NCBI RefSeq assembly: GCF_964355755.1
Contig: NC_092673.1
Location: 29,137,648-29,201,647, forward strand
DNA: 64,000 bases
Origin: Antedon mediterranea
Taxonomy: Eukaryota; Animalia; Echinodermata
Reading direction: 5' to 3'
Positions 1 to 63,604 of the stretch are shown here, piece by piece. A model generated the notes under the pieces. That model was not told the DNA's origin. It saw only the letters and a list, made by a program, of their open reading frames with translations, and searched no databases. Within the stretch, counting starts at the first letter, position 1. Each line of letters starts with the position of its first letter. The translations under genes were made by a program, and so were the position numbers.

Positions 1-1165
1 TGAAAGCAATAAGTATTTTTAATTTGAATATTTGAGCTGGCTATGACTAGCTTATACTTGGTAGTGGTTATGCCGATAATGTTTATAAAAATCTTTAAAA
101 AAATTTAAATTTTACTATGTATATATAGCAATATTAAATGAATAAAGCTCTAAACTAGTAATAAAACTAGTTTGATAGTGTAGATAGAGCTTAACCAGTC
201 CGTTTAATGATTCATTTTATTTATAAAAAAATATTCTTAGTCATTATAGTATACTGCAATTATAAATTATGAAAACAATAAAAGTTCTGGAAGACCACTT
301 GTTATTTAAACATGGTTTTTGCTTTGTTGTTTTATCGTCTTAATTATGCCAAGCAAACAAATTTTCATTTTAAAGTGGACCAATAAAATTTCTTGAATCT
401 TGAAAAATCGAAATTGGCAAACAGAAATTTCGTTTTTACTCATAATAATAATGAATTATTTATAAAAATGCTATTTTTGTATTCAAGGATATTTGTATAT
501 TGATTAGAAGGAATTAAGTATGTAATCAAATTGGCTGAATAGAAGCAAGGCTCGGCCTTGGATTTATCTATTACACATTCAAATGTAAACATCAATATAT
601 CAAAACTTTAAAATATTAAAATATCAATATTGATGCTGTATGCTTTCAGCAACATCATATTGTTATGAATTTCTGCTAGGAGACAAACATTCATTAGGCA
701 TTAAAAAAATAAAAAATGCAATATTTAAATAGAAAAATAAAAAAGATGAGTTTGAAATGAAACAGAAAAACAGACAACACAAACCATGTCAGTAGAGCTG
801 TACATATATGAGCAAGAATTAAAGAGGTATCTATGAAACCAAAGAGTATAAGATACACTAGACGAAAACTAATTGAACTTAAATTCAAAGCAAGGCCCCA
901 CACAACCCCACCCCCATCTTACATGAATCTTACAGTAATATTTTCAACAAATTTTGAAAAGTAGTACTAGTCGTTTTACTAGAGATTACCGCAATCCAAA
1001 CATGCCCAATCTTTGTTTTTTTCACGTTGAATTTAGATAAAAATGTGCAGAAAGCAACCGTGCAGGGTATGATTTTATGATTCCAAATCGATGGGCTAAA
1101 AGCAGCATTAGCACCTCTTTAATTTCTGCTATAATTCCTTACATACACCAGGGGTTCATACAAAC

Positions 1166-1279
1166 CTGTCTAGAGTAATTTGTTACAGGCAAGGGCGGGT
1201 ATTCACACTTTTCAATCTTCTTACACAATTTATACAAGTCCATTTTATCGCCATAAAATGGAGAGTGAAGCGCAGCCAT
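1166..1279 (-). CDS. NEK7: NEK6/7 exon 6B (duplicated alternative copy)
   Basis: tag|ATG...CAG|gtttgt, 114 nt, open frame, [38 protein letters not shown]. Confidence 0.88.
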
Positions 1280-4200
1280 CTATAGACAACAAGTAACACA
1301 ATAAGCAAAGAAGCACACAGAAAGAAAGCATAGATTAGAAACAGGAGGGCGCCCCCAGGGATGGCGGACAGGAAGGTGTACAGCCTCCAGTACTAACCTC
1401 TTCAGAATAATACTCAGCTGGCAGTGGAGGATAGTCACACTGTTCAATCTTTTTGCATAAAGAATAAAGATTCATCTTATCCCCATAAAATGGAGATTGC
1501 AATGCTGCCATCTATAGGACATGAATGTTGAGAAAATAAACACAAACAGGTAATCATTGTGACATCACTCAATTATTAATTCACTGTTTATTATAAAAGC
1601 TGAGCTGATTGATAATATAATTGAATTCAAAAACTGGCTGTCAGGAAATTAGTTTTCCTGTAATATGAAAGGACAGAATAATTACTCTGTAAAAACACTC
1701 TGATTACATTTTCATTTCGTTGATTGTGGCATCATCAATTTAACAGGAGCCTAAAAATTTCAATATTATAATTTGATTACGAGCATTAATCTCTTATTTT
1801 AAAGCAGTTTGAACGACTCCGTCTAAAGAGATCTACTACACTGAAAGTGTGATATGGTAGTGATATGACATCATGTCCTTCAGGACTCAACAAAGTGTCA
1901 CCTTAATAAGCGTGTCCTCTTGCATATAAGGGTTAGCCGTATTTCCCCTCGTTCTTTTAACATAAACGTTTCATTAAGGGTGTCCCTAAAGAAGTGGTTT
2001 TACTGTAATTCCCAAACATTCATACCTCATAGAGTAAGCATCCGACGGACCAAACATCTGATTTAAAGTTGTAGCCGGTTTCGTGAATACGTTCAGGGGA
2101 CATGTAGTAGGGTGTACCCACCAGCGAGTGAGCAGCAGTCGTCTTGGAGCTAAAGAACCGGCCTAGGCCAAGGTCACCAAGCTTTACTATCCCGCTGGCT
2201 GTTATGAATACATTGGCTGGCTTGATATCTGCAAAATACAATGTTTAGCTACTGAACAACAAATATATATATATATTATTTATGCCAGTAGCTTGAATAA
2301 TGAATCATGCATTTATTTCAAGATTTTTAAGTTGATGGACATAATTTTGAATGTCAATATTTATGGACGATAATGAATGAACGATTGATTTGTATTGTAT
2401 TAAAATTTGCTTTCTACAGAGACAACTACTTTCATAGCCCTAAGGTTTATCATGTTGAGCTGCCATTAAGAGTGCTTATATTCATCTGACAGGGCCTGAG
2501 ATATGTGGTAGACCTCTACTCTTCCAAAAGTTGCACATAGTTTATTTAAAGTGCCCTGAACCAGATGTGTACACTGGACCTCCACTTTTTAGGTCCTTAA
2601 TCAAGAAGACTCATTCTCCTAACAACTGGTTGAAGAGAACGTAAACCTGTGCCGATTTTATTGCTCTTGAATCAATATTTACATGTAATTTATCAACAAT
2701 TGTGATCATTAATATTCAAGTAGTAATCCTGTATTATGTAAACCAAACATACAGTACTGCATTTCTTCTTCTAGCGCAAACACTTCGTAGTTTAAATTTA
2801 AACGAGAACCACTTAAACTGGAGTTTACTTGCTACCACTTCAGTGGTTTAAGACAAAATTACAGACTTAAGTTAGTAATGTTTACTGTACTACTTACAGT
2901 AGTTGATTATTTAATCAATGCATCCACTAAATTACTGTAATCGTCCAAACTCTACTGAAGGATACAGTAGCATACTAATGGTTTTGTTTGTAGATAATTA
3001 TACTTTACATTAAATTCAAAACCTTAGCAATTGCTTTAAATGCAAAACACTGCAGAATGAGCATTTCTTTGCATTTGATACTAAATTATGATTTTTTTAC
3101 AGACGTTTCTTGTCTTATTACTGTAATTAAAACAAATATTTCTGAGAAATAAAAGAATCAAAGACTATCTAATAAAAATAATTCTAAAATGATCTAAATT
3201 CTGCAGCATAAAATTGACTACAAAGCATATGCTATATAATTTGATTTACAATAGAGTTTTCTCTATTTTTGTTGCTGTATGTTGCATAGCAACATGACAA
3301 AATAATTTCTTTCCGACCTATAAAAAATACTATTTATACTTTTGCTATATAAACAGTAGACAGTGTGTATCTATTAAGTAGCCATCTTTTGCTCAATTTC
3401 TAAATTGATCAAATAAAATACGACATTAGTATCGATAGCAACAAAGTTCAATTTCATTACAAAATGATACACATGCATTTTAGAAGATATTAGCACACTA
3501 ACTGTCAACAATGCCATTAAGACGGAAATGAAATAATCAATGTAAAGGGAGGATGAATAAAGTACAAATTTGGTTTTTGAAAAGAACGGTGAATCCACAC
3601 CACTTATTTATTTAGCGCCCATTAAAAACAATCGGAATAATATTGGACTTTCTATAACCAGACGGGTCAGCTTAAGGGTGTGCGGTATTAATAGGTCATT
3701 GTATTTACAAGTGTAACCAACCAACTAATCCTAATATATTTTCAGTTCTAAAAATATATGTGGTTATCGTAAAGTATTTTAGTAAACAAAAAGAATTAAA
3801 TGAAGTGAAGGGTAGCGATTGATGGTAATATAATGCTTTAATCCGGCTTTTATACTATAATATCCTCTTTACCTTTTAATATGTCAATGAAAATTAAAGC
3901 ACCATTCACAGGAATTTGTGGTTACCAGGAAATGGTGTTATTGACAGAAAGAGGATACAAAAACAGGGAAAAACCTACAATAATACCAAAATCTATAATC
4001 TTTTAATAAAAGCATTAAAGCAAGCCAGAAATAAAGATAATACAGCATTTATTTCTTTTCTGATATTTACTAACCAAGATAATTACATTTTAAAGGCCAG
4101 GTGCGGGCAAAAAATTTCTATTTATCATACATTCCAATAATTATCGATCTATAGTTTCCCCTATGTTTCATAATTTTTGGGATTTTATTTGTGTTACACG

Positions 4201-7200
4201 AGTTTGTTGAAAATAAGCACTTTCTTATCAGTGGGGGGATAGTTCAAATTACACAGTAAAATCTCTATTCTTTTGTACACAAATTTTGTAAATAGAGAGG
4301 CATTTTAAAAAGCTATGAAAAATAAACGGTGTGGTAAAAAATGTTATCAGATGACTAAATATAGGTAATATAACTTGAATATTACATTTCTGATTGTTAT
4401 TCAACTTCAGATTTTTATTTTCATGCTATGGCAAAAATTATCCACCGTATATCCACCATCTTTTTTCACCGTCTAGGGAGTCACCAGACATGTTATTACA
4501 TTAGGTTAACTACCTAACTACTGAAAAAAAGTCTTTCTGGTTTTTATGGAAAATTCTGCCAAATTTTGTATTTGACCATATTAAGGGAAATTCATGTTTT
4601 TTCATCTCGATTTCTGTTACAAATATTTGATTTATGTACAATTAACCAAATATTATATTTAAATTCATGCCTGTACCTGAGCTTTAAGGCTTGATGATGT
4701 AAAAGAATACAGAAGTGTACTGTACTTTTACAAATTTCAAATACAAAAAAAAGGGGGATTTCCGGTGGGATGGATAGGAAGTGTTTTATGTGGGTTGAAT
4801 GGGTATGGCTAATGCACAGTTGTACACTACATGATTCAATCACTTTTATGGTGGTGCGATGGGTTTTCTGGTTGGGGCTTGTTTGTGTTTGCCGCAGGGT
4901 TTATCACTGAATTCATTCCCAATTAGCAAAGGTGCACTGTAGTGTAACTTATAGATTAGAATGGCTCTCTTGTTTGGCAATGCAGTGTCTGATTCTGTAA
5001 GGGTCAGTTAGAGAACAGTCTACGGAAAAAAAAAAAATAAGTATTTTACACAAAAATAAAAGTCTGTACTACCTCTATGCATGACCCGTCTTGAGTGCAT
5101 ATGCTGCAGTGCAGCTGTTAGTTGTACAAAGTATTTCCAAATAGTCTTCTCTGGAATTAAACGCTTCTGTCTTTTGAAGTGCTATCGGAAAAAAGTAAGT
5201 CATTAAATAAACAAGATAAACATTTTAAAGAATGATATTAAATGTGACCAATGACCAATTAAGTGGCAACTGTGTTTAGTGACCGCATCATTCTAAACTT
5301 TAAATATCATTGTTTTGTTTATCTATTTAAAAATAACTTCAATTTAATAAAACTATTTACTGTAGGTATTTTTACAATATTCAACTCTAACTCCAATATC
5401 AGAAATGGAAAACACTCCCAAAACTGGACTTTCTTGGAGGTCCAAAATGTCCCAAAATCATTTTTAAGAAACACATTCCGAATACCAGACTTACTAGAAA
5501 ACCAGACATATCAGCCCAGGGTGTCTGGTGTAGTATTGGGAGAGTTGACTACAATACTTTGACAGAATATAACTGTATAGAGTAGAGAGTGTGCTCAAAT
5601 TACAAAGTTTATAAAATAGCTTCTTTCATTGTACAATATGGCAAGAATGTGTGACATTGAATGTGGTATGAAACAACCTTAGAAATGCTAACAAGTAGGG
5701 TCACACAGGGTTTAATCAGGTAAAGACATGCATTGTGAACAACAATAATATTGTGTTTAGGTACATATACATACAGTACTGACTACAAATCATGTACCAT
5801 AACCCGCGTTTGTCGCGCGTGTAAAATATGTGTAATTGCCGCGTGCCTGTATTTGCCGTGTGGACCATGACGTCATCACTTTGTAGCTTTTTACTGGTAA
5901 AATATGGAACTCCCGGTACGACGCCCGCGACAACACACATGTGGATATCAGTTGTTCTAGTTTCTATTGTTTAGGCCTACCATCATATTTATGTAATCTG
6001 AACCTGCCCGTTACTGTATGTAACAAAGTTTCTTTTTCTCTATTGTTAGGCAAACAATAAATAAGAAAGTTTATAGAATTCATGTAAATTGTTTTTCATC
6101 GGGGTTTTGTTTAGAGTTCACGTCGTATTATTTTATACAGTATAATGTGAGGCGTACAGCGAGAAGTGTACAACAGCAGGGAGGCTAGGCTAGAATAGAG
6201 AGCTACTGTACCTAAGCCCCCCACAATAAAACATATTTAGCGATCTTTAATAGGTGCCTAGGTCAATAAATAGCCTAATAATAGTAATATTATAAAATGA
6301 TGTTTCCTTGTATTTTCATAACCGTAAGCCAAATATTTAAATTAAAATACAGAGCTAGTGTTTTAGGCCAAGTACATAAGGATTCCCGTACATAACTGTG
6401 AATGGGTTTTTCCGCTGCTCGGTGTAGAAAGTCAAATTATTACGTTCTTCCAACACGTTTATTAAATGTCTTTTAGTATATTTCTATCTAACATGTCTGC
6501 ATTGTATACTTGCTTTATAAATTCTCTGCTTATGAAACGACTTAATAAGTTGACGTTTAAAGCAGATATTTGTCTGACATCAGCCCATGTTTATAATGAA
6601 AACAAAACAGGGTTCCGAAAATGGCACAGTCCAAAATGAGGTGTGCAATTAAATAATATCAACGTAAACATATGCGCACGGTATCAGGGCTGTAATTATA
6701 AGAGAACTGATTTTCCCTGGACGGGAAATGGTAAAAACTTGTATTTATTCGACCTCGCTTCTCTCTCGCTCTGGCTGTGTGCGGAGGAGGATCGCTCCAA
6801 CGTGGTTTCGTGGAGCGATTAATGGTCCAGTCCGTAACAGGGGTGTATATTAGTTACCGCGCTAAATACATGCATGTCAATACTGGCGTTGTAATACTAT
6901 ATAAATTATTTCCTCCCCGACTCAATGGATGAACTCTACAACGTGGTGCGTACAGAAAGTACGTCATTCGGCCACCAGCGACGATCGTGTTTTGAAAGAT
7001 ATTGTTAATGGGTCTTTTCTACCTTGTTTTTTTTAATGAGTTTTCTCAAATACTTAATAAATATAACTTAAAAATATATATAAACAAACTCTGAAAGCAA
7101 ACTAGGCCTAGAATAGTAGTACTGTAGTGTAGTAGGCCTACTAACCTCCATGATTGCACTATGATAAATAAATCGATTTTTTATTTCAAATAGGCCTATA

Positions 7201-10200
7201 TTTTGTTATATAAAATGCTGTTATCCTGTACTGTAATTCCAGTTATTGTCTGTTTGATGATAATAATATATGAACAAAACATCAACAAGTTATAAATGCA
7301 GTTCGCTGCAGTTGAATTACTCAATGCAGTAATGCATGAGTGAATATGGACAGTATTGTTAGTACCTAATTACACGCGAGTCACGCGTTTTTCACACCCG
7401 TGTAAAATGTGTGGGCTTGGTATATGATATGTAGTCAGTACTGTAGTAACTATAACATTTCTATGGGTTGTACTGTCATGGAGAATGATCACACTAAATT
7501 GTAAAGGCCTATTATCAATACTGTGCAGCGGTTAAGGCAGGGGCGCCGTTTACCGTACCTAAAGAGCCAACAACATCGGCAAGGGTTCGAGGCCGACTCG
7601 CTCCTAGTTCTGATAGTGGAACAAAGTCTTCTTGGATAAGGACTATAAACCGTAGGTCCAGTGTACACATACATCTTACAATTATTAAATTGCCAATAGT
7701 TTTCTCTATTTGAATATTTAGCTGTGCAAAAATATAAATAACATAGAATCAATATGTTGAATAATTAATTGAATAATTAAATGTTAAAGCTAAAAACCTA
7801 AAGACATCGTTGAGGAATAATTAGTGCTGATTTCTATTTTTATTTTATTTTTGAAGTGTGAATATTTAAATGGAGTGTGAATACTGTATCTAAATGAAGT
7901 CTGAATATCCAATCTGAGTGTCAATATCCAATCTGAGTGTCAATATTTTCAATTGAAGTGTGAATATCCAATCTGATTGTGAATATCCAATCCGAGTGTC
8001 AATATCAAATCTGAGTGTCAATATCCAATTGAAGTGTGAATATCTATTTAGAGTGTCTTTATCCAATTTGAACTTTAAACTAAAAATGAACCTGATAAAC
8101 TGTAATTGACATCAATGAAGTTGAAAGAAAATGTCAATTTAAAAAATCCAATTTCAATAATTCCGTGAGTCCTGATAATATTCATAGTTTGATCAAACCA
8201 TAAATAATATCTAATGGCAAGTTTTAACAATCCATTTGATAAATATTGTAATTTAATCAGGATGCATAATTAATAAATATTGCAATGTTTTTCATGTCAT
8301 CAGTTTACTGATAATGGCTGTGTGCAAGACACAACCAATAATTATGAAGCAGAATAAGGCAAACACCAATGAAATACAGGTGTGACCAAATTGTAATTGG
8401 AGTCATTGTGAGCATGTTGCTTACACTATAGTAAGTAGTATGAGGAGAAAGGTCTTTCACTTTCACAGTAATTAATTTGAAGTGTAATATTATCAGTAGA
8501 AAATTAAGGTGTGACCAAATTGTAATTGGAGTCAGCGTGAGGAACTACCACAACATAGCATGTTGCTTACACTATAGTAAGTAGTATGAGGAGAAAGGTC
8601 TTATTACCGAACACTTTCACAGTAATTAATTTGAAGTGTAATATTAATGTACTAGTAATATTATCAGTAGAAAATTGAGGTGTGACCAAATTGTAATTGG
8701 AGTCAGCGTGAGGAACTGTCACAACATAGCATGTTGCTTACACTATAGTAAGTAGTATGAGTAGAGAGTTTACCGAACAAAGTTTTATTCTATTATCATA
8801 GAAAATTGAGGTGTGACAAAATTCTAATGAAGGAACTAACAACAAAAAATATTGCTTACACCTTACCAGTATAAAGACAGAGGCCTTGAAATCAGCCATC
8901 AGATCTTATTATTACCGAACACTTTCACTTAACTGAGTTGAAGTGTACTTGTTCAGTAGGAAATTGACAGGAATTAATCTATTGTAAGTAGGATAAAGCA
9001 GCCAGGCAATGATAGCGCTTTAAATTAACGTGCATTGTACAGTTGTTTACATCTTTTAATTTAGCTAAATTGGTAGGCAGCTGAAAATAAGTTGAAATCC
9101 TGCTTTTGATTTCAAAGACATGATAATCTATGTTTAAACCCAGATTTACAGAAAGCTAAGCTGGGAAATAATTTCTTGAGCCAATGACCCTGTTGATTGT
9201 TTGTTTAGGACTCCATTATTTACCCTGTAAACAACTGATTGGTTTCCATTATAATAACAGAAGGGCCCAGCCGTTTTAGGACTCCATTATTGACATTGTC
9301 AAAAGTGTTTTCCATTATCCCAGAAAGGCCCAATTAGGACTACATTATTGACTCAGTACAACAATTGTTGGATTTTACAACTCTTGCCCAATACTACTAG
9401 TACTGTGCATGTCCAACAAAGGATAGCCTACGTTTACTCTACATCGTTGGTTTGCTTTTATTCTCATGTGGATTCAACTCTTGCCTATTAACAGTAATAC
9501 AGTACATGTCCAACAAACAGTAGCCTAACAATAAACAATATTTACTTTTTAAAAATGAATAAGACTAGAGGTGAAACTTGATATTCTAAAGGATTTCAAA
9601 GTTTTCATTTCGGATGAAAAATCACCCGAGAGATTGTTTGACACAAGAGCATATCATTATAATATCCATAATTTGCAGAACAACTTTGCTTGATGAATAA
9701 ATTACGAAGGATTTGTGAATTATTTCTCATAATTACTTCTTCTTACCTTTATCATACGAGCCAAATCGCCAGCATCAGCAAGTTCTAACACAATGTTTAA
9801 TTCATTATTTTGGATGAAGGACGCAAGGTACTTAATGACGTTTGGATGGTTCAATTGCTAAAAAGACAAAATAAAGATTATTAGGAGCATTCAGAAAAAG
9901 TATAAAGCTCTGTCTACACAGGGAGTTGTAAAATTATTATTTTACAACTCCCTGGTCTACACTATAAAACTAGTTTGACTAAAAAGTGTAATGTGCACAA
10001 ATATGGTAGTGATATTCCCAAATATGGTAGTTATATGACATCATCATGTCCATATATGGGCACATTACAATTTTTTCACTTGGGCCAACGTAAACAACAT
10101 TGTGGCGCATCAACTTAATGAATCGGCTTACTACACAAGGCTCAATTTGAAAACGGTTCCCTGAGGGATGATATGAGATCACAGCTTAACAAGATACAAA

Positions 10201-13200
10201 GACACAGATTACTGCTACTGTGACCAGAGGCTGCAGCACTCAATTTATGCAATATTACTTAAAGTTCACACTAAGTTTCTTACGTCTTTACTTAGTGTAA
10301 ATTAAATTTTAAAAATGGAGGATAAGATTAAGAAGGAATCATCATCCACATTCTATTAATAGACTATCAGAGTTAAGACCCATTCACACGAGGATGATAA
10401 CGATCGACAACAAATAAACACATTTCTCACATACAGTAAGGAAAGAAATTAGAAAGGTTTTCGTTCTGGAATTACCGTACTGACGCGGGTATAAGCCCAT
10501 ACTCGGGTATAAGCCCACCCCCGACTTTTGACTAATTTTCATGAAAAATGAGGAACTCGGGTATAAGCCCACCCATTAATTTCTTTGGTACATTTCTATT
10601 TAACGAACATTGTATACTTGCTTTTCTGCTTGATAAATTCTTGTTAAATTGATGTTTAAAATAAGATATTCTACGATAAATTACACGAACTAATTTTCCG
10701 ACACTCTACACCTCGTGTATTTAGAGGCAACGTCGTACACGTGAGGGCGCTCACTCGCATGGTGGAATACACAGTGTACATGTGCTGTTTTTGACGATCT
10801 GCATTTTTGGATCCTCGGGTATAAGCCCACCCCCCAAACTTGACGTGATTTCATGTTCGAGGGGGGTGGGCTTATACCCGCGTCAGTACGGTATACGATA
10901 ATAATTTATACTTTCTTTGATAATAATAACATTTTTAAAAATCCAATCAAATGATGTCATGATAAATAAAATCTTTGCATTGTCACGATATTATTACTCT
11001 TACTAATCATGACGTCATTTGATTGGACGTAAGGAAGCATAGATGGTTATCCTAGATAAAAACTTTTTAGACTTTTTATGTTTGAAAACCTGGACCATTG
11101 ATCGTTAAATTGTCCTTAGTGTAACTGGGCATTTATAAGAATAAATTGACTTCCAACTGATTAAAAATGGTATTTGAAAATATTTACATAAAATAAACAC
11201 TTGCCAAACTACTGTACATAGGCATTAATAATATTAAATATAGTATTAGTATAAAGAGAAATCTTCTTTTTGATATATATTATTATTTCTTTTCTGCAAA
11301 GGGTCTTATGACTACAGACATTACAATTACAGATCCCTGCAATACTAACAATGTAATACAGTTAATATATTGCTGAATAAATGTGAATAATAATTAATTG
11401 GTAATCAGATGGTTGATACAAATATACTGCCAGTAGTGTTATATACATTGGGAGCAATTATACCATTGTAAACATTGGTAGTGAATTTACAGTATATACT
11501 GTACTGATGTCAGGGAGATACCTCCTTAGTAATACATTGCAATACTGTGTAGATAATGAATAATTAATGAACACTGGCTTAATACATCTATTACAGTATT
11601 ATTTGCTGAAGAAAATCAATCAACTAATTGTTTACTGACCAGTGAGTAAATCCATAAATTAAACAGATTAATTCAAAAAATTTTCGATAAAATTCAAGAG
11701 CCATCTAGATTCGACGTGCTTTATTTCAATTTCTTTGTATGCAATTTGATGTACAGTATTTTTCTTTTTTGTTTTATCGTCTTAATTATGCCAAGTAAAA
11801 CCAATTTCAATTTTATAAAGGTGGACCAATAAAATTTCTTGGAATCTTGAATTTCATTAATGTTTTTTAACCATTTTCAATCAAACAAGTTTTTAATTAA
11901 TTTATTCATTATTCTCTCAATAATATTCAGCTCTTTTATTTGACATTCAAGGTTTTAGAGTTCAAATTATTATACCAATAAAGCAATAGGCCTGTCATCG
12001 TAAAATGATACCATAATATGGAAAGCATACAGTACATTGTAGGCCTGTCATAAATTGAATTACCAATATAAAATGGAAAGCACAGACTGGTCATAAAATT
12101 ACTTATCATTTTTAATAATGTAACATATTGTGCACACACAATAATAGTATCGTCGTCATTAAATACTGAATTATATATATTATTAAAAATGTAATTTTTA
12201 TAAAGGAGACATTAAAAACAATGAGTATCAATGGTTCACTAACCAACTCGTACATAATTGAAAATATTTTGTACAAAATACATCAAAAATATTAAAAATA
12301 CAAAAAACTAATGAACATTTTGAATACTGAAATCAATTTGCAATTTTCAAATTATTTAAAAAATTTGCTTTACCGAATAAATACATAATTGAATAACATT
12401 TTTTACTTGTTGATGTACAGTATTGTACTCCAAAAACAAAAAAATTTATAAAATAAGACTTTAAATAGGTTATGTTGTAGTGTAGTGTTAATCACTTCTG
12501 TAGAAAAAAAAATTTGACTATTTTTGCTTTAAATTACATTTTTTCAGGTAAAAAAATAAAAATTTTTCGATCAGGTTTTTTGTCAAAATGAATATGCAAC
12601 ATTAAAATGGCATGTTCAACAAAAATTGTTTTCAAATTTATTTTTTCAGGGGGACAACATATCTTTAAACATTTTAATTTAAAAAAAAAACCACAAAAGA
12701 AAATTGTCAAAACTGACTTACCTTTAATAAATCTATTTCTTTTATACAATCTTGTCTGGCTTTGGCATCCATCATTTCAAATATCTTAAAATCAAGAAAT
12801 ATGGTTTATGATAAAATGTAATCAATATTTACTACAGATTGATTCACATGTCAAAGGTCAATGATATAAGATGGAGATCTGATATTGTATTTTATTGGAT
12901 ATGTATACCTGTGTTCTTTGTCAAACACACTTAAAATAACATGTTAAAAACTAACATAACAGACTCACTTTATACAGAATTAACATAATGTTTTAATATA
13001 ACATTTTATCTTTAAAAAATGTGTATGGCTGTATTAAAAGCAACATTTTGCTACTAATTACTAACTGTGAAACGTACCAATTTCAAGTAAAATGGTTAAA
13101 ATAACACACAAACCATGTACAGTAGTACTTTATAATACCACAATAGTTCATTCATTTCATTTTTTTTATGTCAGTATGGTTTGGTTTTTAAATATTTTTT

Positions 13201-13925
13201 TATGCAAATAGTAAGTAACTTTAAAGGTATCAACATAATGTTTTTTAATCCTTGAATTAAATCCTAAAACATTTAATTTTGAAAAGTAATTAGTGATATT
13301 GGTCACTGAACATTGAAAAGATAAAATATAAAAATCAAAACAAATTGAATTTTATTGCAGTACAAAGAAAAGGTAAGATAAGAAACAAGCTGCTAAATAT
13401 CAATATCAACAGAAATTTTGCAGCATAAAAAATCTTCTTTTTTTTTTCAATTCTTAAAGTACACTATTAATAAATTAATTGTTTAAACATTTAAACAAAT
13501 TTCACTGTATTGTTGTAATAAGTATCTACAGTTGAATACAATAACTCTCCCACTCAAAACCAGATTTTTCTTGAGATTCAAAATGTCAAAAATTCATTTT
13601 AACCAAAAAAATCTCATTCTGAATACAAGAAAACCAGACATATTACACCAGCACAAGGGTGTCTGGTATTTTGGGAAAGTTGACTGTAAGTGTAATATTA
13701 ACATTTAGTACTACTTATTTGAACAAATCGCCTAAAATTGATTGATTAAAACAATGTACTCACTTGGACTTTTTTGAGTGCAATGATGGAGTTATCTATG
13801 ACTGACTTTGCTCTGTAAACTTCACTAAATTGACCTTTTCCAATCTTCTTCTCTATCACAAAATTATCAAGATGAGAATAGTGATCTTCTGTCGTAGCGA
13901 TCTCGGAGCATTGCACACCTTCCAT
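1166..13925 (-). CDS. NEK7: NEK6/NEK7 serine/threonine kinase, 3'-incomplete (last exon lies left of the window)
   Basis: GT-AG exons with consistent phase: 13925-13764 (MEGVQC...[12 protein letters not shown]...ALKKVQ), 12784-12722 ([21 protein letters not shown]), 9857-9747 ([14 protein letters not shown]...[13 protein letters not shown]), 5181-5073 ([18 protein letters not shown]...MHR), 2228-2026 (DIKPANVF...[28 protein letters not shown]...LLYE), then 1511-1398 or 1279-1166. The DLG motif and activation loop are typical of NEK6/7; NEK6 versus NEK7 cannot be resolved. Confidence 0.95.
1398..1511 (-). CDS. NEK7: NEK6/7 exon 6A (canonical-type copy)
   Basis: tag|ATG...GAG|gttagt, 114 nt, [38 protein letters not shown]. 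Confidence 0.93.
2440..2640 (-). mobile_element. Degenerate Deu-domain SINE fragment
   Basis: Similar to 55121-55433 (tttaaagtgc...agatgtgtacactggacct...gaagactc). Confidence 0.55.
5774..7443. mobile_element. Non-autonomous Tc1/mariner-type DNA transposon, about 1.67 kb
   Basis: TIR cagtactgactacaaatcatgtacca / tggtatatgatatgtagtcagtactg (24 of 26 match), TA on both flanks, no transposase ORF seen. Confidence 0.8.
7523..7670 (+). mobile_element. tRNA-derived Deu-domain SINE fragment
   Basis: gcagcggttaagg...gggttcgagg (A/B box-like) followed by ggataaggactataaaccgtaggtccagtgtacacat. Confidence 0.65.
7852..8070. repeat. Approx. 20-bp minisatellite (gagtgtcaatatccaatct-like)
   Basis: About 10 degenerate tandem units visible. 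Confidence 0.8.
8378..8860. repeat. Degenerate tandem repeat of approx. 130-170 bp units
   Basis: aggtgtgaccaaattgtaattggagtca...agcatgttgcttacactatagtaagtagtatgag recurs 3-4 times. Confidence 0.75.
9906..10075. mobile_element. Tourist/PIF-like MITE (agctctgtctacactatc family), truncated, with internal palindromic footprint
   Basis: Family terminus plus 21-bp internal repeats (aaatatggtagtgatat); other copies near 20110-20241, 27370-27505, 35815-35967, 37785-37923, 38870-38990, 39941-40062, 47613-47884 and 58585-58650. Confidence 0.75.
10475..10891. mobile_element. Tc1/mariner-type MITE
   Basis: Perfect TIR ccgtactgacgcgggtataagccca, TA on both flanks, internal ctcgggtataagcccac repeats. 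Confidence 0.88.
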
Positions 13926-30409: not shown

Positions 30410-31861
30410 TTATATATGCAAAACAGCCTTCTCTGCAACCTGTTTACATCCGGATATTGAATAAGCAATTCCATTCTCATGATGAAAAGTAATTTCTGCG
30501 GTAATCTTTTCAACTATTTCATCCGTAATCTTATCATTCGGCAAGTGCTGTTGCAAGACGCTATACGCACACAATTTAACATGTTCTCGTTTTAACGGAA
30601 AGAATGCTAAAATTTTACTAGATTCCGGGAAATTAAAACTTTTATCAAGATTTTCAAAATCTGGGATCACATCATCAGGATCTACTTTATCTTTCGATGA
30701 TTGTAATTCTTGCCTTATAATGTCAGTCGTGTCTAAATAGCAGTTTTCGTCAGTACAGTCCCGTAGTAAAATGTGTTCTTTACCCATCATGCTAGTTAGT
30801 ATAAGTATAGTAGATTTAACGCTTGAATCGGATAATGATTTCTGTATTTTTTGTAACAAATAATCAACAAGTTGAGGAGTAAGAATGTCCGAGTTATCAA
30901 CTATAAAAAACTCAAGAGGGCATCTTGGACTAGTTTCCTGAACGAACCAATCAATAATATCACGATTGATCTGGTCTCCTCTGCCTGTGATATGAAGGCT
31001 TGTAATAAAGCTATGAACGCAAGGACTATCTAAGCCTTTCGTAAACAGATGATTGGCGGCAGCTTCTGCTAGGAACGTCTTACCAACCCCCGGTCCACCA
31101 TGAAACGACAACACAAGAGGGCGTTCATGTTTCTCACCAGTTAACTCATTTTTCAACGCTTCCTGAATAAATTGAATTGTATATTTTTGATGGAAGAAAT
31201 TCTGCTTTAAGTATTTTTTAAACCCTGTAATGTTTATCCGTACTTCATTGTGGTCGTATGGTGGAACACTATCGGTAAATAACATGGATAAGAATAACAA
31301 TGCTAGAACGGTGAAAAACAAAAAACCTATTACGTAACACTTGTCTGCTTGTTTTGTACTGGACGGCGTCTCTTTTATTTTATCATGATAGTATTCAACA
31401 TTGTTTTCGTTTTTGGCTGACTTTTTAATCTTGCCAGAGAACGTGGCCGAGCGCCTCATGGAAGGCTTCTTGGGTTTACTCGCTGAATAATGATTGGGCG
31501 TTAATGATCTTGAACGAGGTGTATCGTTTGATTGTTTACTCATTTTAGGTGATGTATCGTCAATATGGTATGTTTTATCTTTCTTTGTTTTCGTAGCAGG
31601 AGAACGCCAAGTGCTGAATTGATCTCCTGATGAAACAGCCAACGTTTCTTCACCTGGTTTGCGGTTTCGCACAAGACCTTTGCTGATTCCGGGTTCACTT
31701 ATATTCGGAATCAATGATATTTCTGTTAGTTGCTGGTTTCTGATTTGTATGCGGCCTTTACTGATCGGAATATCACAGCAGTTGCTATGATAAATCTCGA
31801 CAGATTGAACAGGTGGTGGAGTGTCCTTCCGTTTTGGATTGTATCCCATCAAAGACATCAT
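30410..31861 (-). CDS. Torsin-family AAA+ protein, torsin-4A-like, single coding exon, type II membrane topology
   Basis: 483-aa ORF: low-complexity basic N-terminus, TM CYVIGFLFFTVLALLFLSMLF, PLVLSFHGGPGVGKT (Walker A), FFPLKREHVKLC, and torsin C-terminal YSISGCKQV. Putative 5' UTR exon donor at 32290/32289. Confidence 0.88.
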   Translation of the reverse strand: MMSLMGYNPKRKDTPPPVQSVEIYHSNCCDIPISKGRIQIRNQQLTEISLIPNISEPGISKGLVRNRKPGEETLAVSSGDQFSTWRSPATKTKKDKTYHIDDTSPKMSKQSNDTPRSRSLTPNHYSASKPKKPSMRRSATFSGKIKKSAKNENNVEYYHDKIKETPSSTKQADKCYVIGFLFFTVLALLFLSMLFTDSVPPYDHNEVRINITGFKKYLKQNFFHQKYTIQFIQEALKNELTGEKHERPLVLSFHGGPGVGKTFLAEAAANHLFTKGLDSPCVHSFITSLHITGRGDQINRDIIDWFVQETSPRCPLEFFIVDNSDILTPQLVDYLLQKIQKSLSDSSVKSTILILTSMMGKEHILLRDCTDENCYLDTTDIIRQELQSSKDKVDPDDVIPDFENLDKSFNFPESSKILAFFPLKREHVKLCAYSVLQQHLPNDKITDEIVEKITAEITFHHENGIAYSISGCKQVAEKAVLHI

Positions 31862-32383
31862 CAGTTAGTCTGTTTATAAATATACAATATAGAATAATTT
31901 ATGAATAATAATTATTGTTTATGCCAAGCAAATTGGCAGTGATATTAGATTTCCACCACAGAATTGCCGTACTCCATTGTATATAACATGCTATAGTGCA
32001 GTTATTTTATTAGCATGTGACCCACAATCGTTTAATAAAATAAGAATCTACTGTCGTGTTATGTATAAAAATTTAATTAAGACAAACTGCGAATGGTACT
32101 GTACTACCGTACTACTACTGTAGTATACTACTGTATTTACTAATCAATTCAACAAATAAAATAATATTGAATGCAATGAATATAAAGATTCTATATCTAA
32201 ACAATGGTGATAAATAGTGTAAACTATATAGCTACAATTATCTACATTTGTATAGATGCACATTGCTACAAAACTGAAAATGTACTTACCCAAAAAACAG
32301 TAAACTGTTACCAAGTCTATCCTTTCTACCAAAAAACAATCATGCTTAACCTTTGAACTTTCAACTTTGACGATTCGAAAAAA

Positions 32384-35300: not shown

Positions 35301-38300
35301 GTTCCAAAGATGGCGTCGGTCGTTGGGATTCTGGGACATCTGGCCAGCCAGCACTCTCAAGATATTCGCATAGCATTGCTTGAGTTATTTCAGGTAAATT
35401 GTTGATTCTATTACATTGTGATAGATGTACAGTTTATTAAGTAGACAGTAGTGGTGTTGTGGTGGTGGTGGTGGTAATGGGTTGTAATGGTGGTAGTGGG
35501 TGGTGGAGGTGGTGGTAATGGGTTGTATTGGTGGTAGTGGGTGGTGGCGGTGGTGGTAATGGGTTGTAATGGTGGTGTTAGTAGTAATCAGTGGTAGTAG
35601 TGCCAAGTAAACCATATATCTGATGTCTTGAAGACACATTTCCTTTCTAAATTTGTTTGCAGGAAAGTCTAACAAGTGAAAATGAGCAGCAACTGCAGAC
35701 GGTTCCATTTTTGCTTCATCTTGCCACCATGTCCGTCATGCTACTCAAAGTCATCACTACGGATTTTGTACAGTCACGTAAGTTTGTAGTGGAGCTGTAG
35801 ATTGGTTGGTAAAGATCTGTCTACACTATCAAACTAGTTGGACAAAAAAAGTGTGATGTGCCCAAATGTGGCAGTAATATGCTCAAAAATGGTAGTGATA
35901 TGACATCATCTATACATAGGCACATCACCTTTTTTGTCACATCAAATTTGATAGTGTAGACAGAGCTTTATTGTGCCTGCTTGCGTTTCATTCCCAAGGT
36001 CCAAAGTGTCAAGGTTGTATCTCACAACTGCAAAACTTCCCTTCACTAGGCCTCAAATTATAAGAACGATATAGTATATTGATCCTAATTGGCGAGTTTA
36101 GTTGCTGAATTTGAAAAGAAAAAGTTGTTCTATACCATATCTATCAATATCAAATAGAGGAATAATCACTACCAAAAGAGTGATGTAAATATGGTTACAT
36201 TTTAAAAGTTGTTCTCCTTTTCCAGTAACTCCCTCAGTACTCAACAGGCTGTCGGAACAATTTTCCAAATCTGCGATAATTAAACGAGATCAAGAAAGTC
36301 TAATACATGTGGTCATACACCTGATATGCAAATCAGGCAATGGTGCTTTTAAGTTGTTGCAGTTTCTGTTGGAGACTGCCTCCAGGAGTTCTCATAGTGA
36401 GAGTGGAGATGAGAAAGTGAACGTGGTTGTACAGGATACTTGTTCCTTAGTGCTGGTAAGATTATAACTAACATGGTAACCATGGTTGCATGGTAACCAT
36501 GGCTATATGGTAACCATGGCTATATGGTAACCATGCAACCATGGTAATCATGGCTATATGGTAACCATGGCTAAATTGTAACCATGACTACATTGTGAAG
36601 TACAAGTTAATTGCAATACAGAGGTCTACAGCTTTAAAAATGAAATATAGGGAGGCTTTATCAAAGTGCAACCAAACCATAGAGTGTGCTATAATTGTGT
36701 TTAAATACAGTACATCCAAACATTGAGGGCACTATTATAGAATCTCATGGCTTCATTATCTAGTTAACAATGGCTATGAAAAGATGCTTTCCAAATGTAG
36801 TCTATACAGGCGTGCATTGTGGAAAATGCATTGTCAACATATTTTTCACCTTTATTAACCAAAAGAGCCTAAATAGTAAATTTATAGGGATGGTTTTTTT
36901 TATATTCAAAACAATTGGGAGACTTGAGATCGCTCAAAATATCAGGAAATTACAGTGTTTATCAGGGTATGCAAATATGACTCATTGTGGTGGGGAAATG
37001 CGTAGTGGGAAATAATGCTGCAACTACTGTACATCATCCAATGCCAAATTAAAGTGAATAATTCAAAATGTAAATGTACAAATTTCATTTACATTTTAAG
37101 GATCTATTGCTGCTTGACTTACAAAGATCAGTTTACAGTAAGACTGGTAACATTGTACAAAAAAGTAGGAGTGACGATCACACAGAGATACCCTTCTTAG
37201 AAGATTTACAGAAACACACTGATGTACTCTGTAAGGACATCTTGAAAACAGACTCCAAAAGGTTTGTATTCTGTAATGTATAGGTATTCTCGTCGAATAT
37301 GTTCATAGGAGTGGAGTTGTGGCTTGGTGGTTATGATACTTGGCTACCACTCTAAGGGTCCTGAGTTCAAGTCCTGTCACATGTCAGATGTCACATTTCT
37401 AATAACAAATTACAATTCCACTCCCAAAGACTTGTAATAAGACTTTGTTATGTAGAGCATCTTGTCTATGTTTATCTAATGTAGTTTTAAAGCATACATT
37501 GTTAATTTCAATGTAATCTCTCCTAAATATGGATGTTTAGATTTGGATAATTATGTCAATAATTTAAATCTAATCTATTAATTATTAAACTAATCTATTT
37601 ATCCATTTAATCTATATCCGTTTCATTAACTGTATTATTTGTTTGTAGTTGGTTACAGCGTTTATTATGCCTAGTGGCTGTACACTGCGGTGAAAGTTGT
37701 GCCTCAGATATACTTAGTTATATACTTGTGAATCTCAATGATCCGCAAAAGGTAAATCTTTTAAAAATTACTTCTATTCTATAAAGCTCTGTCTACATTA
37801 TCAAAGTGTGATGTGCCAAAATATGGTAGTGATATGCCCAAATATGGTAGTGATATGCCCAAATATAGTAGCACGTCACATTTTTTTTGTCGTCACATAA
37901 ATTTTGATAGTATAGACAGAGCTTTACGCTACATTCACTCATGTTCCGCTTCATGGAAAACCATCTACAAGATTGTGAAACGGACCAAGTGCAAACGTAG
38001 CTTAAAAAGTAGATATCTAATGGACTAATAAATGGATTAATAAACAAATTAGGAAATTGTATATACATTATAATGGATATCATAATAATAATATTTAAAA
38101 CATTATTTTTTTATCCCAAAGGCAAGTCTATTTATAGAACTTCAAGCTGAAATGGAAGCTACGTTTCCAGAAGTTCTTGATAAAAGTATAAAGAAAGCTG
38201 TTAGTCACATGCAACATATAGACACCGCTACTGTAAGTACATATAGACACTGCATGCTACAGTAAGTACATATAGACACTGCTACAGTAAGTACATTATA

Positions 38301-41300
38301 GACACTGCTACAGTAAGTACATATAGACACCACCGCTACTGTAAGTACATATAGACACTGCATGCTACAGTAAGTACATATAGACACTGCTACAGTAAGT
38401 ACATTATAGACACTGCTACAGTAAGTACATATAGACACCGCTACTGTAAGTACATATAGACACTGCATGCTACAGTAAGTACATATAGACACTGCTACAG
38501 TAAGTACATATAGCCACTGCTACAGTAAGTAAACTGAGCAGTAATTCATATTCATATGCATTTCTTGCAGTCTGTTATGATGTTAAAAAATCTTGTCTGC
38601 CTTGTTCAATGGGAGAATAGCCCTGAAGGTCGCACCACACCAAGAAGAAAGCTCCAAGACTGTTTGCAGTCGTACCTTCAGATGATCACAGCTCAACTGC
38701 ATCATTCAAGTTGCGATGTCTCTTCAGAGGCTATCAAACTCATGATGCTGATTGGATTACCTGATACTGTGTCTATGGCAACCATTTTGAATGTTGCAAC
38801 GTCAACAGTTAATTATTTCTTTTGTATCTTGCACTTTGAAGGTAACTCGTTGCTAGAAAAAAATGTTTGGTCTGTCTACACTATCAAACTTTATTTGACA
38901 AAAACATGTGATGTGCCCATATGGACAATCAATACTATATTTGGGAACATCACACTTTTTGTCAAACTAGTTTGATAGTGTAGACAGAGCTTTAGAGAAG
39001 AAGATATACCATCAAAATATCAAACACAAAAACATTTTAAATTTCCTCATAGACTCCGCAAACAGACCATGTATACTTAACTGCTGCTGTAAAGTCCTAG
39101 AAAGTTTGAGCAAGACGGCTGTGGGACAGACTATTCTGCTTAAAGAACTTGTAGAGGGGGCACTTCAACAGGTAAGTGAATTTCACTATAAAGTTTAATC
39201 ATGGAACTATTATATTAGTTCCATGGTTTAATGTAAAAAATAAGTGAAATAACTAAACTAAATTTTCAACATTTTTGATTTGCAGGAAAATGCATTTTTA
39301 TTTGGAGGAAAGGTTGTTAAGTATGTTGACAACGCATCAACGAGCAAAGATAGTAAAATGTTGCTACTACAAGAAAACCAAAGAATTGGATCAACCGTAT
39401 CATTTGCGAAACAGATGACAAACGTGTTTCATGGGGGAACTGTGGGTAAAGGGGTTAAACCACAAGTTGAATTAGTAACCATTTCAGAAGTAAGTGTATA
39501 CTGGACCAAATGCAACAACATCAATCAATTAAAATGCAATAATCAGCATTATAAATGCCAAATATATTTCTGTAACAGGCCAAATAAAAGAAAAGCTGAA
39601 AATCACTAAATGTTAAAATTGTACCTATTTTTAATAATACAAATTTAGACCACTAAAGAAAAATATTTAAAATGTAAAAAACAATTATTACTATTTTTTA
39701 TTTTTGTGCTAGGATTTGATGCTAATGAATATACAGACTTTTATTTGTGTGGTGCATAGTTGCTTAGCAACTGACTCTAGACCCCTAGGCTCACAATCCA
39801 GTACTCCTGGAGAGGTTGACTCCAAGTCTGGCAATGAAGTGTTAGCGAATCTACTGGTTGATGTCATCTGTCCAGATGTCACACACGCTGGTGTCGTTTG
39901 GCCGGAAGAGGAGCACATCAAAACCAAGATTAAAATGTAAAGCTCTGTCCACACTATCAAACTTTATGCGACAACAACATGTGATGTGCCCATATGTATA
40001 TGAACATGATGTCATATCACTACCATATTTGGGTATATGTAATTACTACCATATTTGGGCACTTGATAAACCAAGAAGGAATCCTAAGTCAACACATCTA
40101 ATTATATTACTGCAGTAACTATATTACTGCATTTGAACTTCACCAAATTACTTATGATTTATTACACAGGGACCTTTTGATACGAAACAAGTTTGACAGC
40201 AACCCAATCTTATGGGAGTTAATGGACATGATTGCAAGTGGTAAGCTAATGTCACAATCATTTGCTTGTGTCTTTTGGAAAATTGCTACAGTAGGCCTAG
40301 ATATATGTGAAATATACGATACTTACAGTGGATTCTAGATAATTTATCTACTGTACAAATTGTTTCGTATCATATTTAATGTCTAATACACTGTCGCACA
40401 TATAGAGATGCAGTCCAGTGAGGAGCGGGTGATATTTTAATTAAAATTTCAAAGATGTATTGTCCCCCTGAAAAAATAATTTTAAACATTTTTTTTTAAT
40501 ATGCCATATTAATGTTACATAATAGTTTTCCACTTTGATCCAAATTGAATTTGCCTGAAAAAAAACTGTATTTACCTGAAAAAACTGTAATTTAAAGCAA
40601 AAAAATAGTCAAATTGGCTGCCAGCCAATGGTTTTTAATTGAATTAATTTGGTCATTTTATAAGTGAAAACATTGGTTTTTTTTCTACGGTAAAAGTGAT
40701 TAACTCTATTAAACTAACAAATAACCTATTCAAAATCTGATTTCATTAATCTTTTTTGTGGAAAATTTATCTTTAAATAATTTGTTGTGTTTCCAACAGA
40801 TAGCATTGCGATGTGCCACTGTTCCCCATTGCTGTACAGCACATTGTCTACTGTGATTAACTACTGGGATTCTGCACGTGTTAGCAGAGCTAGTGACGCA
40901 CCATCCGAATTAAAAGCTTCATGTAACATCATCAAATATCTAAGCAAGGTACATTTAGATTTAGGGAGCCCTCTATTGGTTCAAATACTTAAGTATGGTA
41001 CATACTTAGATTTAGTGAGTTCAAAAGCAAAGTCAGTACCTACTTAATTTTGACTTTTTACAAAATATCCGAAATATACTTTTTTAATGTTTTATTTACC
41101 CGAAAGAACCATAATTTTAAAGCAAAAAATAGTCAAATTGACTGTCAATAGGTTTTTGGTTGAATTTAAATGTTTTTAAAGTGTTTGTAAGCCTAATAAA
41201 CATAAAACAGAAAAACCTATAATAATTTTGTGGGTTTTTTTTAGGCCCAATTGTTAGTGGCACCGTTTTGCTACATCGGTGAAATACTAGATCATCTGGA

Positions 41301-63100: not shown

Positions 63101-63604
63101 AATAACGCCAGCACCACGTCGTCACTACGTCCGTCTGCTGCGGACAACTACGCTAGCACCACGACGTCATTACGTTCATCTACTGTGGGCAACTACGCCA
63201 GCAACACGACGTCAGTACGTCCGTCTGCCGCTAACAACTACGCCAGCAACACGACGTCACTGCGTTCGTCTGCTGTGGACTCGTATCAACAAATGCAATA
63301 TACCATAGCCTTTGATTTTCCGATTTGTTCCGAAAACCATGACAAATCCGACCCAAATCCTCCACTTGGTACGTACGTTAAGATTAATTTTGACGATAGT
63401 GGCCCTCCACCTGAATGTGTCCGGCATCCCATCATTGACGTCATAACGCTAGATTCATTAGAAATAGAAGAGGATATTTTAAATGACGTCAGCATAGAGT
63501 TTTACCCATCAGACAGTTACAATACTAAAATAAACGAAGAAAACATAATAAAATGCGGGTATGTTCCAATTTCGAAAACAAGAGAGGATTCAATACAGAC
63601 TTAA
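60182..63604 (+). CDS. Single-pass class I cytokine-receptor-like protein (two FN3-type domains), about 491 aa
   Basis: Exons 60182-60245 (signal peptide), 60598-60721 (NLSCESTTIDQYRCIW), 61258-61439, 61622-61776 (IPREVS...ITAIWQRP...YKVHYW), 62009-62198 (DLSPYTTYNISI...KWSKQT), 62690-62853 (TM), 63008-63604. All phases consistent, 1476 nt. Confidence 0.75.
60743..61010. repeat. Approx. 30-bp minisatellite (agactaggcctatatttggaaagtgcttaat)
   Basis: About 9 degenerate units in intron 2 of the receptor gene. Confidence 0.85.

What the first reader, a model, noticed from the sequence alone, without database searches (positions are those of the whole stretch)
788..1397. Nested long-range RNA duplexes that could mask the exon 6A donor and select exon 6B
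Seen on the minus-strand pre-mRNA: (1) the 6A donor GUUAGUA[CUG]GAG[G]CUGUACA (1397-1377) is complementary to UGUACAGCUCUACUGAC (804-788), giving 17 bp with one G-U and two bulges and covering intron positions +1 to +7; (2) AGCAGAAAUUAAAGAGGU (1130-1113, about 35 nt past the 6B donor) pairs with ACCUCUUUAAUUCUUGCU (828-811), 17 of 18 pairs including one G-U. The two distal partners are only 6 nt apart and the helices are nested and compatible, leaving exon 6B and its splice sites in the loop. Known: docking/selector RNA pairings control mutually exclusive exons in insect Dscam1, Mhc and 14-3-3zeta. Inference: the folded state blocks U1 at 6A and favours 6B, and the unfolded state gives 6A. G-runs at about 897-915 on the minus strand may add protein control.
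Basis: partly seen in the sequence, partly recalled or inferred. Interest (0 to 1): 0.85.

Follow-up and report, generated by a model that had tools for sequence, protein, structure and literature searches.

The report
Echinoderm NEK7 exon-choice RNA switch
In a cell-division kinase gene (NEK6/7) that matches feather-star sequences, two look-alike exons are each spliced in on their own, and three predicted long-range RNA pairings in the introns likely form a two-position switch that picks one of them.

Summary
The gene is a crinoid NEK6/7 kinase with tandem, in-frame 114-nt exons 6A and 6B. Spliced contigs join each exon singly to exons 5 and 7. Both single-exon forms are annotated in 10 of 11 echinoderm species seen and in no outgroup. 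H2 beats shuffles (0 of 100); H1 alone is marginal (9 of 100). H3 shares 11 nt with H1 and crosses H2. The likely switch is therefore between two folds of near-equal predicted energy, not folded versus unfolded. H3 would loop out 6B and leave the 6A donor partly open. H2, with H1 or local hairpins, would cover that donor and give 6B. In a roughly 96%-identical relative all three helices keep their energy (0.7% of simulations do as well), but no two-sided compensatory change was seen. Exclusion looks leaky: 6A+6B models exist in 6 species. Nothing is tested experimentally. No paper on this was found.

The parts
13761..13925 (-). NEK6/7 coding exon 1 (approximate ends)
   Evidence: tblastn of P0001, 98%
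12722..12787 (-). coding exon 2 (approximate)
9747..9857 (-). coding exon 3
5073..5181 (-). coding exon 4
2026..2228 (-). coding exon 5 (activation segment); its donor is joined to 6A or to 6B
   Evidence: human NEK7, E 1e-39; contigs covering exactly 2026-2228 in X5 and X9; loose ends
1398..1511 (-). exon 6A, 114 nt, phase 0, ancestral type (35 of 38 residues as human NEK7 229-266)
1396..1416 (-). end of exon 6A: second-choice partner (H4, -17.6) of 828-809 when H2 is open
1280..1397 (-). 118-nt intron between 6A and 6B; first 55 nt 64% G+C; 103-nt AG-free zone
1377..1397 (-). H1 proximal arm, includes 6A donor +1..+7
1360..1387 (-). H3 proximal arm (6A intron +11..+38); shares 1387-1377 with H1
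1334..1338 (-). branch-point candidate, A at +63 from the 6A donor (predicted only)
1301..1305 (-). second branch-point candidate, A 23 nt before 6B (predicted only)
1166..1279 (-). exon 6B, 114 nt, phase 0, derived copy (72% DNA identity to 6A over the repeat)
1113..1130 (-). H2 proximal arm, 35 nt past the 6B donor
892..918 (-). D3: G-rich distal arm of H3; lies inside the loop closed by H2
811..828 (-). D2: distal arm of H2
788..804 (-). D1: distal arm of H1; its best partner in the 14-kb pre-mRNA is the 6A donor region

Best explanation
Exons 6A and 6B of this NEK6/7 kinase gene are duplicated alternatives that are spliced in one at a time, and the choice is likely biased by two competing long-range RNA folds: H3 would loop out 6B and favour 6A, while H2 would block H3, let the 6A donor be covered and favour 6B. 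Shown: the exon pair, the single-exon junctions, the complementarity, the overlap of H1 with H3 and the crossing of H3 with H2. Predicted: H3 leaves donor positions +3..+8 largely open, while the H2 state pairs +3..+6 through H1 or a local hairpin, and the two states lie within about 0-4.5 kcal/mol. Inferred from srp and ATE1: a helix that starts just past the upstream exon and encloses the downstream one promotes the upstream exon. D3 is transcribed before D2 and D1, so H3 would form first and H2/H1 would have to displace it. The switch would set the ratio and reduce, not abolish, double inclusion.
For:: X5 contigs join 5-6A, 5-6B, 6A-7 and 6B-7, with no 6A-6B joint listed; X9 holds 5-6A-7. 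Both exons are 114 nt in frame and all donors are U2-type, so neither decay nor spliceosome incompatibility enforces the choice. H3 is the top duplex of 2030-600 (-34.7), reached by 0 of 100 shuffles, with the best partner in 128 kb; 3 of 62 other tiles are as strong, 1 of 55 without the repeat-end tiles. H2: 0 of 100 shuffles, best partner in 128 kb. Organism B: the change in the H1 arm falls in its 3-nt bulge, 1125 at H2's mismatch, 807 in the spacer, and two G-U pairs of H3 become G-C, offsetting two 1-nt deletions in D3. Energy changes are -0.1, +0.5 and -0.8; the sum is matched in 0.7% and 'all three no worse than +1' in 0.23% of 3000 random placements. Of six D3 partners tested only H3 keeps its strength in organism B. 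State energies and donor accessibility.
Against: No experiment was done. Only one close relative (about 96% identical) was seen, no pair changed on both sides, and 788-794, 827-857 and possibly part of 911-918 were hidden near contig ends. Taken singly, the conservation tests are weak for H1 (17.5%) and H2 (11%). D3 is promiscuous: it also pairs with the start of 6B (-29.1), 1118-1089 (-26.7) and a repeat at 10884 (-37.7). Duplexes of about -24 are the median best of a random tile. A first, seed-based tile scan, which under-scored H3, found the region unremarkable (best duplex matched in 11 of 72 tiles). In the H3 state the exonic donor bases -2..+1 are still mostly predicted paired. Energies of 600-860-nt folds are uncertain by several kcal/mol. 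6A+6B models are annotated in Antedon mediterranea, three sea stars, a sea cucumber and a sea-urchin fragment. The 103-nt AG-free zone points to a branch-point or polypyrimidine mechanism as well.
Confidence: 0.5

Rival explanations
1. The helices are incidental. The choice is made by proteins (hnRNP F/H-type on the G-runs, PTB-type on the long pyrimidine tract of 6B), helped by a branch point near enough to the 6A donor to hinder 6A-6B joining.
For: AG-free zone of 103 of 118 nt, best branch motif at +63, and a -8.5 kcal/mol hairpin between donor and branch point that would shorten the distance. G-rich RNA pairs promiscuously. Chance duplexes near -24 are common. 9 stretches as G-rich as D3 occur in the window.
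Against: +63 is above the roughly 50-nt steric threshold quoted in PMC7969005, and a second branch motif sits at the usual distance. It does not explain why three arms each find a top-ranked partner within 130 nt of each other, nor the organism-B pattern.
Confidence: 0.25
2. One reading: H1+H2 folded masks the 6A donor and gives 6B, the unfolded RNA gives 6A, and the G-runs bind proteins.
For: H1 and H2 are nested and adjacent; D1's best partner in the pre-mRNA is the 6A donor; H1 forms with H2 at 0.92-0.95 when exon 6A is left out, and H1+H2 dominates one organism-B fold.
Against: It ignores H3, 15 kcal/mol stronger than H1 and overlapping it. H1 alone is matched by 9 of 100 shuffles. Its donor-covering part (about 5.5) is weaker than U1 pairing (about 8.2).
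Confidence: 0.12
3. Opposite polarity for H1: its 11-bp core (1387-1377 with 804-795) and H3 both act as 6A-promoting bridges that loop out 6B, U1 displaces the weak donor-covering end, and only H2 promotes 6B.
For: H1's core is -14.7 of -20.2. In srp and ATE1 a helix from the inter-exon intron to the downstream intron promotes the upstream exon (PMC4691838, PMC7797038). In state H1+H2 exon 6B lies inside H1's loop, which is repressive in those systems.
Against: H1 is compatible with H2 and predicted to form mainly with it; the 7 bp over the donor would be superfluous.
Confidence: 0.13

Closest known systems
Human ATE1 exons 7a/7b (R1R3/R3R4 and R2R5; PMC7797038)
   Same: Two homologous exons; one element with two competing partners; splice-site masking by structure; a long-range helix from the inter-exon intron to the downstream intron (R2R5, like H3) that favours the upstream exon and crosses the other helices.
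   Different: ATE1 masks acceptors with duplicated arms R1 and R4. Here the masked site would be the upstream donor, all three distal arms lie downstream within 130 nt, and the arms are not visible duplicates. ATE1 is proven by mutagenesis; this is predicted.
Drosophila srp exon 4 dual (bidirectional) pairing (PMC4691838)
   Same: Two non-shared, crossing helices act as a two-state switch, one per exon; the downstream stem is needed for the upstream exon.
   Different: srp uses one upstream and one downstream dock; here both docks are downstream.
Docking site/selector systems: Dscam1, 14-3-3zeta, Mhc (as described in PMC6071210 and PMC4691838; the primary 14-3-3zeta/Mhc paper was not read)
   Same: Downstream docking region; elements just 3' of each alternative exon.
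   Different: No single dock shared by a selector of each exon: the one candidate (D3 with 1118-1089) loses its core in organism B.
Kinase mutually exclusive exons such as JNK2 6a/6b (PMC1874599); MAPK8 and MAPK14 listed in PMC8373072
   Same: Tandem duplicated exon inside a kinase gene; that the JNK and p38 exons cover the same alphaG region is recalled, not from a call.
   Different: JNK2 is enforced by a U2-U12 hybrid intron; here all donors are U2-type. Human NEK7 has a single exon-6-type segment in the records seen.

Membership tests
Tandem-duplicated mutually exclusive exons | Homologous neighbours of equal length and phase | tested here: met
   114 nt each, phase 0, 72% DNA identity
Tandem-duplicated mutually exclusive exons | Each exon spliced singly to both flanking exons | tested here: met
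   All four junctions in X5 contigs; RefSeq X1 and X2 of Antedon mediterranea
Tandem-duplicated mutually exclusive exons | Double inclusion absent or rare | tested here: inconclusive
   No 6A-6B joint, but contigs drop rare forms; 6A+6B models in 6 of 11 echinoderm species seen
Tandem-duplicated mutually exclusive exons | Both exons conserved across species | tested here: met
   A-only and B-only models in 10 of 11 echinoderm species seen; B exons form one side of a branch, 81/96
Docking site/selector (Dscam1, 14-3-3zeta, Mhc type) | One docking site complementary to a selector beside each alternative exon | tested here: not met
   H2 and H3 use different docks; D3 with 1118-1089 falls from -26.4 to -18.6 in organism B
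Docking site/selector (Dscam1, 14-3-3zeta, Mhc type) | Pairings that cannot form together | tested here: met
   H3 shares 1387-1377 with H1 and crosses H2; prediction only, a pseudoknot cannot be excluded
Docking site/selector (Dscam1, 14-3-3zeta, Mhc type) | Conservation with compensatory changes across species | tested here: inconclusive
   One relative at about 96%: energy kept, one-sided G-U to G-C changes, no two-sided change; no distant introns obtained
Docking site/selector (Dscam1, 14-3-3zeta, Mhc type) | Loss on disruption and rescue by compensatory mutation | not testable with these tools
   Needs a minigene
srp-type bidirectional pairing | An upstream dock pairing with a selector to loop out the first exon | tested here: inconclusive
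   Best upstream candidate 1850-1821 with 1407-1379 (-25.1) abuts a repeat; organism-B contigs stop aligning at 1813-1820
ATE1-type two-module structure | Competing helices that mask the acceptors of both exons | tested here: not met
   The predicted masking here concerns the 6A donor
ATE1-type two-module structure | Long-range helix from the inter-exon intron to the downstream intron | tested here: met
   H3 has this geometry; function untested
Steric exclusion by a distant branch point (alpha-tropomyosin, OGDH type) | Branch point within about 50 nt of the upstream donor | tested here: inconclusive
   Motifs at +63 and +96, AG-free zone 103 nt; branch point not mapped
U2/U12 incompatibility (JNK type) | A U12-type donor on one exon | tested here: not met
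   Donors of exon 5, 6A and 6B are U2-type (U12 consensus recalled)
Frame-shift/NMD-enforced exclusion | Double inclusion shifts the frame | tested here: not met
   114 nt each; the 327-aa 6A+6B model is in frame

The most novel reading that the evidence does not exclude
All echinoderms share one ancient exon duplication in NEK6/7 whose choice is set by a finely balanced, possibly temperature- and elongation-sensitive RNA conformational switch. The switch swaps the alphaG helix and the acidic patch that human NEK7 uses to bind NLRP3 (D261, E265, E266 become T, R, Q in crinoid 6B), and so would toggle the kinase between partners such as NLR immune receptors and spindle proteins.
Probability: 0.1. 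Interest if true: 0.85.

Novelty: new variant of a known kind. Interest (0 to 1): 0.6.

Why it matters
RNA-pairing control of mutually exclusive exons is documented in insects and in human ATE1 in the papers read here; my searches found no echinoderm case. This locus offers a compact test case: about 620 nt hold three helices and two states, with a donor-masking geometry that differs from the known designs. It also points to an echinoderm-wide NEK6/7 isoform pair that is in RefSeq models but that my searches did not find in print. The swapped segment (end of alphaF, alphaG, loop to alphaH) carries residues that human NEK7 uses to bind NLRP3 (PMC7830601), so the two isoforms may differ in partners.

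Tried and rejected
Distant orthologous introns were not obtained. No genome is held for the window. 0 of 80 metagenome loci hold a second exon-6 copy (47 have exon 6 as a separate exon, 33 of them with at least 500 nt on both sides). Scans of genome contigs and viral contigs found no relative. Run X10 laid nothing on 730-1600. No run was on record as RNA; X5 and X9 are taken as RNA because their contigs are spliced. Idea that 6B is pan-bilaterian: rejected, since the 6B-like louse-cluster ORF P0002 runs from exon 5 into exon 6 without an intron and the louse sequence groups with single-copy exons. D3 as a common dock for 1118-1089: rejected, an 8-nt deletion in organism B removes its core. D3 pairing with the start of 6B: weakened by 5 kcal/mol in organism B, kept only as a minor possibility. 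A helix masking the +63 branch motif (1338-1332 with 1012-1006, in the fold): rejected, broken by the change at 1010 in organism B and at 1006 in X5. U12 and NMD mechanisms: rejected. Rfam: no match at the curated threshold in 1-2300, one chance-level hit at E 0.68. The seed-based tile scan under-scored H3 and was replaced by a sliding scan; both results are reported. The one-clade test failed to run. Earlier findings of the scan: nothing. The shift from H3 at 37 C to H2 at 15 C is within model error and is not used as evidence.
Full report
The gene. The minus strand of window 13925-1166 encodes a NEK6/7 kinase. Exon 2228-2026 matches human NEK7 at E 1e-39. The Antedon mediterranea model P0001 aligns to six coding exons at 95-100% for exons 1-5, so the source is a crinoid close to that species. 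Exon 7 lies beyond the window's start. Exons 6A (1511-1398) and 6B (1279-1166) are each 114 nt, phase 0 and 72% alike, with a 118-nt intron between them. Including both keeps the frame, and the donors are U2-type, so neither decay nor spliceosome incompatibility keeps them apart.

The splicing is real. In run X5, contig loose ends at 1513 and 1281 are the end of exon 5, and those at 1398 and 1166 read as the start of exon 7 (L-R-E-L-V-T-L-C-I, translated by hand, as in P0156). All four single-exon junctions are thus present in one run, and no 6A-6B joint is listed. Contigs drop rare forms, so this does not show absence. X9, from the related organism B, holds 5-6A-7. A-only and B-only models exist for 10 of 11 echinoderm species seen (2 crinoids, 4 sea stars, 1 sea cucumber, 3 sea urchins; Diadema showed A only; no brittle star was seen). 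The 8 two-copy proteins among 286 stored are all echinoderm, and 0 of 80 metagenome loci have a second copy. On a 38-column tree the 9 B exons form one side of a branch (81/96, 94% of bootstrap trees) and the A exons sit with outgroup single exons. One duplication in the echinoderm stem is the simplest reading; it is not ruled out, and not proven. Against strict exclusion, 6A+6B models are annotated in 6 of the 11 species, including A. mediterranea X3 (327 aa) and one L. pictus fragment.

H1 and H2 are as described. H2 was matched by 0 of 100 dinucleotide shuffles of the downstream intron and its partner is the best in 128 kb; H1 was matched by 9 of 100 and its partner ranks eleventh. In a scan that fixes no arm, H2 is the best ungapped helix of its tile, but 24 of 187 other tiles have one as good (16 of 170 without repeat-end tiles). 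H1 gains weight from position: 15 of 7526 windows match its arm as well, yet its partner lies 6 nt from H2's, and D1's best partner in the 14-kb pre-mRNA is the 6A donor.

The missed helix. The unconstrained fold of 1560-680 contains neither H1 nor H2 but a 23-bp helix, H3, between 1387-1360 and the G-rich 918-892, with pair probabilities 0.7-0.9. H3 is -34.9 kcal/mol, the strongest duplex in 2030-600, matched by 0 of 100 shuffles, best in 128 kb for its proximal arm and matched by 3 of 62 other tiles. An earlier seed-based scan under-scored it and ranked the region as ordinary (11 of 72). H3 shares 1387-1377 with H1 and crosses H2, whose loop contains D3. Across six windows and both organisms the H2 and H3 states differ by 0-4.5 kcal/mol. 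With H2 forced, donor positions +3..+6 are mostly 0-0.2 unpaired, through H1 or local hairpins; with H3 forced, +3..+8 are 0.4-1.0 unpaired, though -2..+1 stay mostly paired. Forced H1+H2 costs 7-9 kcal/mol at 37 C in the window's sequence when the end of exon 6A is included, and 3 when it is left out, where H1 accompanies H2 at 0.92. D3 is transcribed before D2 and D1, and H3 dominates the shorter growing transcripts.

The relative. Organism B differs at about 4% of sites (32 of 904 in the longest contig). In the visible parts of the arms the changes are: a substitution plus 1-nt deletion in H1's bulge (1389, 1388); 1125 at H2's mismatch (run X6 only); 807 in the spacer; 1112, turning a flanking G-U into A-U; 1370 and 910, each turning a G-U of H3 into G-C (910 at half depth in X7); and 1-nt deletions at 899 and 903. 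Using the X6 list (875, at half depth, and two unlisted gap letters left out), the energies change by -0.1 (H1), +0.5 (H2) and -0.8 (H3). Random placement of the same changes does as well in 17.5%, 11% and 2.1% of 3000 trials singly and 0.7% for the sum. Of six D3 partners only H3 is not weakened. Limits: one relative, few events, no two-sided change, and 788-794, 827-857 and perhaps part of 911-918 hidden near contig ends (6 of the 7 differences of the contig over 764-857 are not listed).

Mechanism. The best reading (0.5) is a two-fold switch. In one fold H3 encloses 6B and leaves the intronic 6A donor open, giving 6A. In the other H2 takes D3 out of reach, H1 or a hairpin covers the 6A donor, and exon 5 joins 6B. 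The direction is inferred from srp, where the downstream stem is needed for the upstream exon (PMC4691838), and ATE1, where breaking R2R5 abolishes 7a (PMC7797038).

Protein consequence. Exon 6 is residues 217-254 of P0001: the end of helix 203-219, helix 231-240 and the loop to helix 253-262 in the model (pLDDT 81), which by standard kinase naming are alphaF, alphaG and alphaH. It equals human NEK7 229-266. A review states that D261, E265 and E266 of NEK7 contact NLRP3 HD2 (PMC7830601); 6A has E, E, E there and crinoid 6B has T, R, Q. The end of B is variable in other echinoderms, so a partner switch is only a lead.

What is known. It works like the competing-structure systems but is not a docking-site/selector member, because no shared dock was found; it is closest to ATE1 and srp. 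Searches: NEK7 with 'mutually exclusive exon' gave 6 papers, none on this by title or abstract; NEK6/NEK7/alternative splicing/duplicated exon gave 25, 20 listed, none on this by listing; echinoderm with mutually exclusive exons and RNA secondary structure gave 1, on myosin; Nek7 with sea urchin and alternative exon gave 0; two searches gave 0 and 2, and the main text of PMC8373072 has no 'NEK'. The library lacks most subscription papers. Papers seen: PMC7797038 abstract, first third of Results, Discussion; PMC4691838 abstract, Introduction, first quarter of Results; PMC6071210 first fifth of the text; passages only of PMC7750478, PMC8373072, PMC11802352, PMC7830601, PMC7969005, PMC5378181, PMC1874599. 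No supplements were read; gene lists in the supplements of exon-duplication surveys could mention NEK6/7.

Verdict. This is a new variant of a known kind, in an exon pair that is annotated but apparently undescribed. Interest 0.6.

Noticed in passing
window 1821-1850 and 1379-1407, minus: An upstream intron stretch next to a high-copy repeat can pair with the 6A donor region (-25.1); organism-B contigs stop aligning at 1813-1820, so its conservation is unknown.
   Followed up: partly
window 1252-1278 and 893-923, minus: D3 also pairs with the start of exon 6B (-29.1; -24.0 in organism B), a possible extra way of silencing 6B.
   Followed up: partly
window 1398-1511: Exon 6A shows 0 differences in organism B while 6B shows 4; chance or extra constraint on 6A.
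   Followed up: no
window 896-915, minus: The G-runs of D3 could alternatively form a two-tier G-quadruplex or bind hnRNP F/H-type proteins (from the sequence; not computed).
   Followed up: no
P0250, P0131, P0025, P0139, P0133, P0256, P0257, P0024: 6A+6B models in crinoid, sea stars, sea cucumber and a sea-urchin fragment would duplicate the alphaG region; real minor isoform or annotation by-product is open.
   Followed up: partly
P0131, P0135 (Acanthaster): Models in which 6B reads on into a different C-terminus instead of exon 7.
   Followed up: no
P0022, P0002 (louse cluster): A single-copy exon-6 segment with the same H, K and Q as crinoid 6B, apparently convergent.
   Followed up: partly
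window 20114, 35817-35963, 37919, 38872-38987, 47617-47880: Copies of a short element with terminal inverted repeats (MITE-like); they supply the strongest chance duplexes in the tile scans.
   Followed up: partly
window 1-400, 1852-1880, 4090-4690: High-copy repeats inside NEK6/7 introns, with very high contig depth.
   Followed up: no
window 30410-31864, minus: Long ORF with a torsin-family AAA+ domain (PF06309, E 1e-19).
   Followed up: partly
window 48809-49558, minus: Exon of a tubulin-tyrosine-ligase-family gene (PF03133).
   Followed up: partly
window 55860-57963, minus: Exons of an arylsulfatase with a predicted C-terminal hydrophobic stretch (PF00884, PF14707).
   Followed up: partly
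window 54140-54604 and 62984-63604, plus: Two ORFs without a Pfam match; the second has short repeated S/T-rich units.
   Followed up: no
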